From Octopus vulgaris (lineage: Eukaryota), in the NCBI GenBank assembly GCA_951406725.2, contig OX597838.1:27962001-28026000 (forward strand): a stretch of 64,000 nt of DNA. Direction: 5' to 3'. A program made the position numbers and the translations under genes. Position 1 is the stretch's first letter; the number at the start of each line of letters is the position of its first letter. Shown in pieces: positions 3,942 through 15,004 of this stretch. The notes beneath the pieces are model-generated. The model was not told the origin of the DNA. It worked only from the letters and a program-made list of their open reading frames with translations, and ran no database searches.

Positions 3942-4570
3942 ATGGCCATTGATGATATATTGCCGACAAAATCGAGACAGAAAATGTTAGATACTCGCCG
4001 TTTGTTCAACGCGAATATGGATACGACAACTACGACTAGTGCTATTGGAAGTTCAGCAAGTCTTGATACTGGCAACATCAATGATAATCAAAATGCAATA
4101 GAAACCCTCTTGAAAAACAGCACCAATTTTGAATTAATCATGCCTTCAACTTCGTCGGTGTCTGGTGCTAGAAGTGGCCATATTGCTCTTGACGCGAATG
4201 TCAACAACAATAACGACGGCACTCACAACAACAACATGATTTTCTCTGGAAACTTAAACCTAAGTAATAACTTTAACATTGATAACATGAACTTTACCTA
4301 CGAGGAAACAATTCACAGTGGTCACTTTATGCTAAGTCAGGTCCACGATGACAAAACTGCAGACGATTATGATGATGAAAATACTGTCAAAGAGGAGAAA
4401 GACGCTCAGTCCTCTTCGACGGGCCTCAATTTTCTCAGTTCTTCGACCTCCCACGAAAATGTTGGTGCTACAAATTTGGATTTTAGGGACTATAGTGCTA
4501 CACAGTCAACACTTTTCTCCATTGACGGTTCTCTTACCAAACTATTCGAGTGTATGACCTTAGCTTACAG
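3942..4570 (+). CDS. MLXIP: First coding exon of a Mondo-family (MLXIP/MondoA, MLXIPL/ChREBP) glucose-sensing bHLH-Zip transcription factor; ends in a phase-2 intron
   Basis: ORF 3918-4574 contains EETIHSGHFMLS (Mondo conserved region 1) and SIDGSLTKLFECMTLAY (MCR2). The first in-frame ATG is at 3942 in a gtgATGG context. TAC AG|GTGAGT donor at 4570/4571 matches the LAYS|G junction known from vertebrate MLXIP. Invertebrates have a single Mondo gene, so the paralogue name is nominal. Confidence 0.92.
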
Positions 4571-5019
4571 GTGAGTCTCGAAATTGAAACTAGTACTTTA
4601 TTAAACTAAAATTAATTATGTATATTTTTGATAATTGCCCCTGTTTCTACGAAGTTTCATTTTTCTGAAAAAAAAATCCTTTCTTTTTTACTTTTTCACT
4701 CCATTCTAGTCCATTTCATTCCCTTAAAAGCCTGAACTCTGTACGCAGAGGGTTAACACAGACGATCTCAATATCAAACCAGCTGATTTTTTACTCTGGC
4801 AGCGGTTTGACCTCTCCTCTTCCTCAGCTTCTACCATTCTCGCTAGTTTATTATATAATATATCTACACACCCTGCTGTATGTATTCCTATACGCACACA
4901 CTCAAATGTATACCCTTATATATAACAACATAAATAATATATAAACATATGCATATATACATACATATATGCACATACCTACACCTATATGTATATATAC
5001 ATGCATATATGGGTACAGT

Positions 5020-8039: not shown

Positions 8040-9050
8040 TGAAGTTGAGTAAAAAGTAAGCAACGTTTCAAACCATGAAGAATTTGTACTGGATTTTTGA
8101 TGAGTTTTGAAAATGGTTTAAACGATTTTGCAGTGGAGACCTGAGCCTTGAAGATTGAGTATAATGGACATCCATTTGTCATTGATGACGGTCAATTAAA
8201 GACCGTCATTGAGAAAGATCCGCATAAAATCACTCGAACTGGCAAAAGAACTTCAAATTAGCCAGAAAACTGCCTGCAACCATTTGCATGTGATCAGAAA
8301 ATCAAGAAAGCTCGACAAATGGGTAACACACGATTTGAATGAAAATCAGAAAATGCACAGATGTGAAATTTGCTTGCTGCTTCTTCTCCATAACCAGACT
8401 GATTCATTTCTTGACCGTATTGTAACTTGCACTGAAAAGTGGATTCTGTACAATAATAAAAAACATTCTTCACAGTAGTTGGACCAAAATGGGGCAGCGA
8501 AAACCTTCCCTAAACCTGAGCTCTTCAAAAAGGTTATCGTGACTTGTAGTGTATTGCTGGACTCATCCACTATAACTTCTTAAAACCTGGAAAAATCATT
8601 ACTGCAGAAACATATTGCCATGAAATTGCTGAAATGAATGAAAAACTGCTACTCCACCATTCCAGCCTGGTCAATAGAAGCGGGCCAATCATTCTTCATG
8701 ACAATTCTCGACCATATTTCACTAATGATGCTCCAGAAGTTAATGGAACTTGGCTACGAAGTTCTTCTCCACCCAGCTTATACCCCAGACCTTTCTCCTA
8801 CCGACTACCATTTCTTCAAGCACCTTGATGGTTTCTTGCGAAGAGAAGGAGTTCAAAAATCAAACTGATGCTGAAAGCACATTCAAAGAGTCCATCAGCT
8901 CCTGAACTCCAGATTTTTATGTTACCAGAATAAACAAAAATCTGTTGATTGTAATGGTATTTACTTTAATGAATAAAATTTCCGCATTGTTGAAATATAT
9001 TGTGATGAATTTCATGCTTCAAAACATTGCTTACTTTTTACTCAGCCTGA
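8040..9050 (+). mobile_element. Degenerate mariner transposon with transposase pseudogene
   Basis: TIRs (gagtaaaaagtaagcaacgttt / aaacattgcttactttttactc) flanked by TA. Frameshifted motifs WVTHDL, FLDRIVTCTEKWILY, IILHDNSRP and HPAYTPDLSPTDYHFF correspond to mariner WVPHEL, TGDEKW, HDNARPH and YSPDLAPSDY. Confidence 0.92.
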
Positions 9051-11271: not shown

Positions 11272-11572
11272 TATATTACGGAGATGTACTTGCATAGCAA
11301 GTGACTTGATCTGAGATCGTGTGCTAGAACGAAAACAATTGCAGCATGGAAGGTGTTTATAAGCCATTTAAGAAACACGAAAACCGTTAGATTCACTTCA
11401 ACATTTAAATTTAATTTGTCAAAATATTTTCGTCGCTTTGAGACCGCGACCGGTTCACCGACAAAACTTCGTGCAGCACGAAGCTTTGTCAGTGAACAGG
11501 TCGCGGTTTCAAAGTGACGAAAATATTTTGACACAAATTAAATTTAAATGTTGAAGTGAATCTAACGGTTTT
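11272..11572 (-). mobile_element. Penelope/retrozyme-like terminal repeat with an inverted duplication (palindrome 11380-11572)
   Basis: ~95-bp arms centred on cttcgtgc-a-gcacgaag (11475), each carrying a hammerhead-like fold. Inverted partial terminal repeats plus minimal hammerheads are typical of Penelope-like elements. Confidence 0.55.
11487..11533 (+). ncRNA. Candidate minimal type-I hammerhead ribozyme, G3:C8 core variant
   Basis: TGTCA [GTGAACA] G GTCGC-ggtttcaaa-GTGAC [GAAA] ATAT TT TGACA: stem I, 7-nt core, stem II, GAAA, palindromic mini stem III, NUH = UUU. Confidence 0.5.
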
Positions 11573-13176
11573 ATTATTTATAGTTATCGTTATACCAAGC
11601 AGACTCTACTATCAACTCGTGACCCTTTTTTTTTTTTATTCACATATAAGTTCAGCCATGGTTGTGTAGTAATAAGTTTGCTTCTCATCCACATGGTTCC
11701 CGGTTCAGTGTCACTGCATGATACCTTGAGTAAATGTCTCCTGTAATAGTCACAGGTTGACCAATGCCTTGTGAGGGAATTTGGTAGACAAACTAAATGT
11801 TTGTGTTGGTCACTTCACCACTGCTTGACAACTGATGTTGGTTTCTTTGCATCCCTGTAAATTACCAATTTGGCAAAAGAGACCGATTATAAGTAACAGG
11901 CTTAAAAGAAAAAAATGTACGAATGATTAAGAAGTTTGCTTGGCAACCACATAGTTTCAGGTTCAGTCCCACTGTGCAGCACCTTTGGTATCTCCTACTA
12001 ATTTCCTGAGTTTCCCAGAGACTTGTGAATAAATTTGGTAGGCAGAAACTGAAATGAAGCCTACCATGTGTATATGTATACTCCCTCCACACACAACAAG
12101 CTTCCCTGAAGTTTGTCTACTAATTCCATTCACCAAGCTTGCTGCTATAGTTGAAGGCGCTTGCCCAGGAAGCCATGCTGTGGGATTGAACTTGAAACCA
12201 CACGGTTGTGAAGTGAACTTCATGACATCACACCAATTGCTTGCTCCTGTAATAGTTGCCCTAAATAAGGGTGCTGGGCTGGGAGCAGAACGATTATCAC
12301 ACTGGAAAAAAAGCTTAGCGGTTTCTTCCAGTTTTGCATTTTGAGTTCAAATGTCGCAGGGGCCAACTTTGCCTTTCATCCTTTTTGGTGGTGGGGCAGG
12401 GTCGATAAAATAAGTACCAGTTAAGCACTGGGATCAATATAATTGTCTAGCCCCCTCACTCAAAATTGCTGGCTTTGTGCCAAAATGTGAACCAATATTT
12501 GTTCTAAATACTGCCATAAAAGATTATCTCTTGCTCCATGATTAATCACCTTATTTAACATGCTTAGGTCTGTTAATATTTTCTTAATACAGAGTATATT
12601 CTAACATATCAGCCGATAGATTTAATCGCATGTTCGATATGGCAAAACTAAAATGAAAAACGAAAATATTGTTCCAAAATATTGTACTTTTACTGAATGA
12701 ATTCATCTGACAACAGCTGTTGTTTGTTCAGGTCGACTTGATAGAGATGACATATAAGCAAAAGCAGGTCAGCTGTGACCACCTCCATTTTTTTTTTTAT
12801 AGATGCATCCAGGACCAGATTATGTAACAAACCCCTTTTCTAATTTAAATTAGCAGGGTGTGATTTGATAGAGATTTTGGTTGCTATTTTTAAGCAAGCT
12901 GGGTGGCCATATTTGGAGGCTTTGCTGTTGGTTTGTGGAAAGGTTAGGCAAAGGAGCATTGAAGAGTAAGTCCTGGAACCAATAAGTGATCCTGATCACC
13001 TTATCCCTGAACCGGACTCAGGTTTATTGCAAGGTTGTTCAAGGGGAAGGGACACATTGAATGCATTAAACCCAGTACTTGACTGCTACTTTATTTTATC
13101 AATTGTGAAGGGACGAAAGGCAAAGTTGACCTAGGCAGGATTTGAACTCAAAATGTTAAGAACTGGAAGAAATACC

Positions 13177-14356: not shown

Positions 14357-14779
14357 ACAAGCAGTGAAGCTAGCTGAAACAGTAAGACTGCTTTACATTC
14401 AGTTTCATCCCACAGGGATTTGAGTTCAAATTGCAGCAACAGACTCACAGAGCTAAGCATTTTGTCCAATATGTTAACGATCCTGCCAGCTCGCTGCCTT
14501 GTTTTGAAAATAGCTATATCCAAATATATTTTGTTTCCCATACTTACCTTCCTGTTTTGTTGTAAGAATTCATTGTTTTCAATAGTTCAGCTGCTATTAT
14601 AATTGCTGCAAGCAGCTGTTGATTTGAAAAAGATAGCTAGGAGTGTATTTAAGCAGCTCTTCTGCTTCCATTAGTCTTTGTGTGTGTGTAGTTATGTGAT
14701 GGTGCATATCTGTTTCTTGGTATATTTCGTTTTGGGATTTGGTTTGCAAGATTCTTTATATGAGTTCGTGTGTTGAAGC

Positions 14780-15004
14780 ATATTCTGTTGTGTCTGAGGA
14801 GAGTCATTCTCTTTTAGTGCCTTATTATTTAACACACTCAAGACTATTGAAAAGGTCAAGACTATTGAAAAGGTTGCAAGATGCAATGAAAATTTTAGAA
14901 ATTAATAAAAATAAAAAAAAGAAATAAGTGGAAATTTTACCGGTGAGTGTGTTAAATAATAAGGGACTAAAAGAGAATGACTCTCCCCAGACACAACAGA
15001 ATAT
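14780..15004. repeat. Inverted repeat, 61-bp arms with 103-bp spacer
   Basis: 14780-14840 versus 14944-15004 with about 3 mismatches; an 18-bp direct duplication (caagactattgaaaaggt x2) lies at the inner edge. Confidence 0.85.

What the first reader, a model, noticed from the sequence alone, without database searches (positions are those of the whole stretch)
11380..11572. Palindromic element carrying a non-canonical (G3:C8) minimal hammerhead ribozyme on each strand
Seen: the + arm reads TGTCA-GTGAACA-G-GTCGC(ggtttcaaa)GTGAC-GAAA-ATAT-TT-TGACA (11487-11533). The - arm (11415-11465) reads TTTGTCG-GTGAACC-G-GTCGC(ggtctcaaa)GCGAC-GAAA-ATAT-TT-TGACAAA. This is type-I hammerhead topology: stem I, 7-nt core, stem II, GAAA, palindromic mini stem III, NUH. 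The core is GUGAACA instead of CUGANGA. Known: C3 and G8 form a tertiary Watson-Crick pair and the G3:C8 swap is a compensatory change. Minimal hammerheads with a palindromic stem III that act as dimers are typical of Penelope-like terminal repeats and metazoan retrozymes, and Penelope insertions often carry inverted terminal duplications. Inference: this is a Penelope/retrozyme-type family with a covariant hammerhead that CUGANGA pattern searches would miss. Stem differences between the arms (G-C vs G-U) keep the pairing. The - arm has lost A9. The intact + copy is sense to the Mondo pre-mRNA, though the palindrome could sequester it.
Basis: partly seen in the sequence, partly recalled or inferred. 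Interest (0 to 1): 0.85.

Follow-up and report, generated by a model that had tools for sequence, protein, structure and literature searches.

The report
Swapped-core hammerhead in octopus retroelement stub
This palindrome is a short two-armed leftover of an abundant Penelope-like jumping gene, and each arm carries a small hammerhead-type RNA motif whose two paired core letters are swapped relative to sister elements, so it likely still folds as a self-cutting RNA in the parent element, although cutting is untested and this copy is predicted to be locked in a hairpin.

Summary
[quoted passage not shown] The motif is a type-I minimal hammerhead with core G3...C8. It sits where sister families and metagenomic relatives carry C3:G8 or U3:A8; 13 of 13 family representatives keep a Watson-Crick 3:8 pair. 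G3:C8 is known from laboratory double mutants (partial rescue). I found no natural report, but could not read two key papers. Cleavage is not shown. Copy 5' ends cluster about 15 nt upstream of the hammerhead, often with an extra G (cap-like), with no excess at the predicted cut site. The copies therefore likely come from capped, uncleaved RNA. In 37 of 42 palindromes one arm ends near +206 and the other near +148, and this copy's arms belong to different sub-lineages, which points to two priming events and sometimes two RNA templates. It is not a retrozyme or a DNA-transposon TIR. In Mondo-sense RNA the 95-bp hairpin is predicted to bury the motif. The scan noted this motif twice before elsewhere in this genome.

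The parts
11275..11478 (-). Long arm: pLTR of the Penelope-like element, from just after the inferred transcription start to the distal end site (about +206), followed by AT-rich flank
   Evidence: 87% identity over 206 nt to the pLTR upstream of the ORF in L248; family boundaries
11476..11572 (+). Short arm: inverted second pLTR copy, ending at about +102; carries the loop-T/CA-insertion haplotype of a minor sub-lineage
11485..11535 (+). Minimal type-I hammerhead motif, G3:C8 core (core 11492-11498, stem II 11500-11518, palindromic stem III 11522-11527, predicted cut after 11528)
11415..11465 (-). Second hammerhead motif, G3:C8, with A9C and a G-U pair at the base of stem I; predicted cut after 11422
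11275..11367 (-). First ~30 codons of the element's ORF (ATG at 11367), part of the pLTR
   Evidence: translation matches the ORF start in L248
11275..11333 (-). 'Tail' between the two preferred end sites (about +148 and +206), present on one arm only
   Evidence: bimodal 3' ends; one long and one short arm in 37 of 42 palindromes
4257..4571 (+). Open frame with Mondo-like motifs (host gene; the element lies downstream, before the next exon I found)
   Evidence: motif scan with recalled motifs; later exons on the same strand in L508, L509, L511; Pfam gave no hit

Best explanation
The palindrome is a stub insertion of the pseudo-LTR of a Penelope-like retroelement (Neptune/Nematis type), and the motif on each arm is that element's minimal hammerhead with a natural G3:C8 swap that likely preserves the core's tertiary pair and would cut only as a dimer or with the element's protein. 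Shown: the parent architecture (pLTR with hammerhead, ORF with RT, linker Zn-finger-like motif and GIY-YIG, 3' UTR of about 1 kb, pLTR), thousands of copies, covariation of positions 3 and 8 across related families, and the distribution of copy ends. Inferred: the element is transcribed from a start about 15 nt upstream of stem I. The capped, uncleaved RNA is reverse-transcribed from two internal sites (about +148 and +206), one on each nicked strand of an AT-rich target. The two cDNAs, sometimes from two different RNA molecules, are joined at their far ends to give the head-to-head stub. Inferred: two RNAs held together could pair through the 6-nt palindromic stem III and form the active dimer, at a step after or apart from copying. 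Predicted: this genomic copy is inert in the Mondo-sense intron RNA because the arms form a 95-bp hairpin.
For: Walking upstream from the repeat reaches RT and GIY-YIG frames, with an inverted 5'-truncated copy in L062. There is a 1,025-aa open frame with YVDD, a Cx3CxxC linker and Pfam GIY-YIG. 23 of 30 endonuclease loci have the G3 core in the downstream flank. L247, L248 and L251 show the same pLTR upstream of the ORF. Within the family G3 is in 76 of 79 and C8 in 81 of 84 arms, the young subfamily changes loop II but not core or stems, and no other letter reaches 3% at either position in four runs labelled as three other organisms. Sister families in the genome have C3:G8 and U3:A8 (28 of 30 copies). 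Across 13 family representatives the 3:8 pair is Watson-Crick in 13 (C:G 8, U:A 4, G:C 1; shuffle p 0.0002), against 3 of 13 for neighbouring positions (one search agrees). The base before the start is G in 57 of the first 100 listed truncated copies, where the element has C or T. 3' ends are bimodal, with one long and one short arm in 37 of 42 palindromes. The window's arms carry different haplotypes. PMC11167929 (parts 1-2 of 4 read) reports for a lizard Poseidon element two internal initiation sites, extension of both strands, uncleaved RNA as template, protein-assisted cleavage and partial rescue by C3G/G8C.
Against: No cleavage is shown: 3 of 37 5' ends between -35 and +8 fall at the predicted cut (p 0.47). 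A small G3:G8 sub-lineage with different 3' junctions exists (L047, L055, L056, L058; L089 runs off the locus), so an intact pair is not needed in cis for new insertions. G3:C8 occurs in one lineage only, so it is one evolutionary event, and the 13 rows are related by descent. The family is too young for within-family conservation to single out the motif. U17 and the G3:C8 pair are both sub-optimal by laboratory data (PMC8495972 passage for G3:C8; U17 recalled). Most palindromes have concordant arms at the main subfamily sites (0 of 42 and 1 of 37 discordant), so two templates are shown only for a few.
Confidence: 0.8

Rival explanations
1. The motif descends from a hammerhead but is catalytically dead or nearly so. 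G3:C8 arose by drift through an unpaired intermediate, and the element spreads without it.
For: No genomic trace of cutting. Copies derive from uncleaved RNA. A G3:G8 sub-lineage made insertions. Hammerhead mutants did not affect insertion in vitro in PMC11167929.
Against: Two transversions that restore exactly the 3:8 pair, with all other core letters, both stems and a perfect palindromic stem III kept across subfamilies that differ 10-15% in protein, are unlikely without selection.
Confidence: 0.14
2. The repeat is a non-autonomous retrozyme-like or SINE-like unit that replicates through hammerhead-cut circular RNA.
For: Short copies far outnumber ORF-bearing ones (9,090 anchor matches; 13 family hits for the ORF N-terminus). 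One junction recurs in five loci, so a stub can re-amplify. L042 and L060 show local tandem copies.
Against: The unit is the pLTR and ORF start of a coding element. Copies are dispersed singles or head-to-head pairs, and their ends sit at the inferred start and the two internal sites, not at the cut site.
Confidence: 0.04
3. The palindrome is a DNA-transposon terminal inverted repeat (MITE) and the hammerhead look is chance.
For: Long inverted repeat in AT-rich DNA; fold energy z only -1.1; no Rfam hammerhead hit.
Against: The arms join head-to-head at variable points and have unequal ends. The sequence continues into RT-endonuclease frames. Rfam also misses the canonical relatives (0 of 4).
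Confidence: 0.01

Closest known systems
Minimal type-I hammerheads (min-HHR) of metazoan Penelope-like elements (Cervera and de la Pena 2014, PMC4209133; main text parts 1-2 of 4 and supplement file 2 part 2 of 3 read)
   Same: In the pLTR; one extra nucleotide between 9 and 10.1; G10.1-C11.1; GAAA; short palindromic stem III; predicted dimer requirement; thousands of dispersed single motifs.
   Different: Core is G3...C8. The parts read report C3-G8 and a U3-A8 covariant only. The extra nucleotide is G, where their >80% consensus has H.
Poseidon element of Anolis (PAc; Frangieh et al. 2024, PMC11167929; parts 1-2 of 4 read)
   Same: Two internal reverse-transcription start sites inside the ORF start defining a tail; AT-rich targets; uncleaved RNA as template.
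   Different: There C3G/G8C is an engineered mutant with partial rescue; here it is the natural state. This element has the Zn-finger-like linker of Neptune/Nematis, and its hammerhead lies about 55 nt upstream of the ORF start instead of overlapping it.
Neptune and Nematis clades of endonuclease-bearing PLEs (Craig et al. 2021, PMC8557442; passages read)
   Same: C-terminal GIY-YIG, CX2-5CxxC linker, (TA)n targets, partial tandems, inverted 5'-truncated copy, tail at one end.
   Different: Tail is about 57 nt instead of 30-40; clade not resolved between the two for lack of reference sequences.
Animal non-LTR retrozymes (bioRxiv 10.64898/2026.07.22.740005; abstract only)
   Same: Hammerhead-bearing short repeats derived from PLE pLTRs.
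   Different: Retrozymes are tandem non-coding arrays; these copies are dispersed stubs of a coding element whose ends do not map to the cut site.

Membership tests
Endonuclease-bearing Penelope-like element | Single ORF with RT and GIY-YIG endonuclease | tested here: met
   1,025-aa frame with YVDD; Pfam PF01541 above cut-off. Pfam gave no RT hit; the RT call rests on motifs and on homologues labelled RT-domain.
Endonuclease-bearing Penelope-like element | pLTR in partial tandem flanking the ORF | tested here: met
   Same repeat upstream (L247, L248, L251) and downstream of the ORF
Endonuclease-bearing Penelope-like element | Inverted 5'-truncated copy and one-sided tail | tested here: met
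   L062, L093-L098; 37 of 42 palindromes
Neptune/Nematis clades | CX2-5CxxC linker before a C-terminal GIY-YIG | tested here: met
   Cx3CxxC at 896, YIGET at 934 of P0002
Neptune/Nematis clades | RT phylogeny with named reference elements | not testable with these tools
   No named PLE references on hand; tree holds unnamed relatives only
Naiad | N-terminal endonuclease | tested here: not met
   Endonuclease is C-terminal
Minimal type-I hammerhead of PLEs | U4 G5 A6, G12 A13 A14, A15.1-U16.1, H17 | tested here: met
Minimal type-I hammerhead of PLEs | Literal C3 and G8 | tested here: not met
   G3 and C8
Minimal type-I hammerhead of PLEs | Watson-Crick pair between 3 and 8 | tested here: met
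   G:C here; 13 of 13 across families
Minimal type-I hammerhead of PLEs | Stems I and II, extra nucleotide after 9, G10.1-C11.1, palindromic stem III | tested here: met
Minimal type-I hammerhead of PLEs | Self-cleavage as a dimer | not testable with these tools
   Needs an assay; indirect junction test negative
Rfam hammerhead families | Covariance-model hit | tested here: inconclusive
   No hit, but 4 canonical or U3:A8 relatives are also missed
Non-LTR retrozyme | Tandem non-coding monomers delimited by the hammerhead | tested here: not met
   Dispersed single or head-to-head copies of a coding element's pLTR; ends not at the cut site
DNA transposon / MITE | Fixed terminal inverted repeats around an internal region | tested here: not met
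   Variable central junction, unequal arm ends

The most novel reading that the evidence does not exclude
This is an active natural G3:C8 hammerhead, the pairing so far known only from engineered mutants, and the Penelope-like protein carries two copies of its RNA into each insertion event, priming one on each DNA strand at two different internal sites; that paired state is where the minimal hammerheads dimerise and cut. The head-to-head stubs with one long arm, one short arm and sometimes two haplotypes are the genomic record of it.
Probability: 0.3. Interest if true: 0.7.

Novelty: new variant of a known kind. Interest (0 to 1): 0.42.

Why it matters
A natural G3:C8 core extends the known 3:8 covariation of hammerheads (C:G, U:A) to a third Watson-Crick pairing and shows that searches fixed on the canonical core miss whole families of thousands of copies. 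Three related families in one genome with three pairings give a ready comparative set for testing what hammerheads do for Penelope-like elements, which is still open. The stubs also map the element's likely start site and its two priming sites from genome sequence alone, and hint at two RNA templates per insertion. For the host gene the copy is most likely a neutral intronic hairpin.

Tried and rejected
Cleavage trace in copy junctions: three inverted arms in the first sample seemed to start at the cut site, but over 250 arms only 3 of 37 ends in the -35..+8 range fall there (p 0.47), and one of these is explained by the self-complementarity of stem I. Within-family selection test on double mutants at 3 and 8: discarded, because 17 of the 30 fetched loci belong to other, older families. 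A3:U8 family: a genome pattern gave 183 matches against 278 for the control, so none was found with that pattern. Splice-acceptor reading of the 5' hot spot: the upstream sequence resembles a branch point and acceptor, but copies keep the AG and add a G before it, which fits a capped start better. Rfam: uninformative. Expression: no RNA holder listed, only contigs. One search had a pattern one letter too long and found 2 matches; redone. Literature: Lunse et al. 2017 (about 150,000 PLE hammerhead variants, recalled) and Przybilski and Hammann 2007 are not held, so a natural G3:C8 may be reported there.

Full report
Observation. On the plus strand stem I is 11485-11491 with 11529-11535, the core 11492-11498 reads G3 U4 G5 A6 A7 C8 A9, one G follows, stem II is 11500-11518, G12 is 11519, positions 15.1-16.1 form a perfect 6-nt palindrome and U17 is 11528. 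The minus arm is the same motif with A9C and a G-U at the base of stem I. The fold energy alone is unremarkable (z -1.1) and Rfam gives no hammerhead hit, but Rfam also misses 4 of 4 related loci with canonical or U3:A8 cores.

The repeat. The plus arm has 2,375 first-look candidates in the 2.8-Gb genome. A 21-letter pattern with positions 3 and 8 free has 3,890 exact matches (reversed control 0); 92 of the first 100 listed are G3:C8 (counted by eye). An anchor just downstream has 9,090 matches. The family unit runs from the palindrome centre to window 11275. The genome encodes at 99-100% identity a protein that NCBI labels Octopus vulgaris.

The parent. Walking upstream through a microsatellite-rich stretch of about 1 kb reaches GIY-YIG and RT frames; L062 also has an inverted 5'-truncated copy. 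[quoted passage not shown] 23 of 30 endonuclease loci carry the G3 core in their downstream flank. L247, L248 and L251 show the same repeat upstream of the ORF, which starts inside it (window 11367 on the minus strand). This is the pLTR-ORF-pLTR plan with inverted copy and one-sided tail described in PMC8557442 (passages read), and the linker places it with Neptune or Nematis. I could not resolve which.

Is the swap real covariation? Within the family G3 is in 76 of 79 and C8 in 81 of 84 arms from 97 arms taken in genome order. The young subfamily changes loop II and flanks but not core or stems. No other letter reaches 3% at either site in four runs labelled as three other organisms. The family is young, so this conservation alone proves little. 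The cross-family comparison is what counts. A sister family at 57% protein identity has C3:G8 at the same place, a third at about 50% has U3:A8 (28 of 30 copies), and older families share this motif's stem letters with pyrimidine 3 and G8 (15 and 13 of 17 loci; that search excluded G3 and C8). Of 31 metagenomic relatives, 8 gave a clear motif downstream of the endonuclease (5 C3:G8, 3 U3:A8). Two more (L318, L321) were dropped for uncertain register, and the rest lacked downstream sequence or a recognisable motif. Over 13 representatives the 3:8 pair is Watson-Crick in 13 (shuffle p 0.0002), against 3 of 13 for 3:7 and 3:9, and stems I, II and III covary. An independent alignment of 15 rows gives CG 8, UA 4, GC 2, UG 1 and beats all slid controls. 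The rows are related (tree): C:G and U:A alternate several times, G:C arises once.

How the stub formed. In the 97 arms most 5' ends lie between -6 and +19 of one site about 15 nt upstream of stem I (the peak at +17 is partly an alignment artefact) and 1 lies at the predicted cut. Among the first 100 of 1,003 truncated copies starting there, the preceding base is G 57, C 29, A 9, T 5, where the element has C or T; several have G directly after a (TA)n flank (counted by eye). An added G is the known trace of copying a capped 5' end (recalled), so I infer a transcription start and an uncleaved template. 3' ends are bimodal: 38 of 97 at +145-152 and 48 of 97 at +203-206, the reference ending at +206. 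In 37 of 42 palindromic loci one arm ends at the far site and the other at the near site, and none has two long arms (five of these share one junction and are not independent). This matches two internal initiation sites and extension of both strands reported in vitro for a Poseidon element (PMC11167929). Arms usually agree at the main subfamily sites (0 of 42 and 1 of 37 discordant), but L139 and L141 have different loop-II types, and the window's plus arm has a loop-T/CA-insertion haplotype (7 of 8 insertion-bearing copies, itself included) while its minus arm has the major one. Two RNA templates is the simplest reading for these; later gene conversion is not excluded. The window's short arm ends early, at +102.

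Does it cut? Not shown. Over 250 arms from all fetched loci (a mixed, partly selected set) 3 of 37 ends between -35 and +8 fall at the cut (p 0.47). A G3:G8 sub-lineage with different junctions shows that the pair is dispensable in cis for insertion. In favour, C3G/G8C partly rescues activity in the laboratory (PMC11167929; PMC8495972, one passage), and in the young pLTR transcript stems I and II are predicted to form with probability 0.93 and 0.996. The palindromic stem III is too short for a monomer, so a dimer or protein help would be needed, as for other PLE motifs (PMC4209133).

This copy. A Mondo-like gene runs on the plus strand: motifs at window 4314-4570 and later exons about 170 kb on (motifs recalled, Pfam blank). 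So the plus arm is sense to the intron RNA. The whole palindrome folds at -135 kcal/mol with zero probability for the hammerhead stems, so this copy is predicted to be inert.

Novelty. Natural U3-A8 is reported (PMC3088659 section 8; PMC4209133). Searches for G3-C8 and its spellings and for C3G with G8C, for octopus with Penelope and hammerhead, and broader ones returned only engineered cases. The part of the PMC4209133 supplement that I read lists none; its file 1 could not be searched. Lunse et al. 2017 and Przybilski and Hammann 2007 are not held, so a prior natural report cannot be excluded. Other papers seen: PMC6765202, PMC3884650, PMC6962438, PMC6155905 (passages only). Two earlier notes of this scan describe the same motif elsewhere in this genome. 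I looked at them after forming my reading. One mentions an indirect hint of cutting, which my junction test did not give; the other mentions all three other pairings, of which I found C:G and U:A but no A:U family.

Verdict. A real natural variant of a known kind: the G3:C8 minimal hammerhead of a Neptune/Nematis-type element, here in a palindromic stub. Interest 0.42.

Noticed in passing
window 14721-15004: A stub of the U3:A8 sister family: motif at about 14856-14900 on +, with a duplicated 5' piece and an inverted segment at 14721-14840. It is decayed in stem II.
   Followed up: partly
L471-L496 (17 of 30 loci): Older related pLTR families with the same stem letters as this motif but pyrimidine at 3 (15 of 17) and G at 8 (13 of 17); 8 of 17 are U3-G8 wobble. 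The search excluded G3 and C8, so the states are selected.
   Followed up: partly
L047, L055, L056, L058, L089 (contig C16): G3:G8 sub-lineage with different 3' junctions; long old-subfamily copies are over-represented on C16 (16 of 40 hits).
   Followed up: partly
L116, L120, L160, L162, L166: Five palindromes share one central junction and the same arm differences: a stub that seems to have re-amplified as a unit.
   Followed up: no
L186-L215: A very young sister family with many 1,310-1,312-aa open frames and a C3:G8 core with C at position 9.
   Followed up: partly
L024 2397-3095 (-); L061 about 8200-8900: Pieces of another Penelope-like type: a GIY-YIG-like frame after an Asn-rich linker, and an RT N-terminal piece in a complex palindrome; resemblance to the Hydra clade is recalled, not tested.
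   Followed up: no
L198, L268, L272: Canonical minimal hammerhead motifs of other repeat families turned up in flanks.
   Followed up: no
window 11637-11990 and at least 15 other places: Abundant SINE-like repeat family right beside the element and throughout the window.
   Followed up: no
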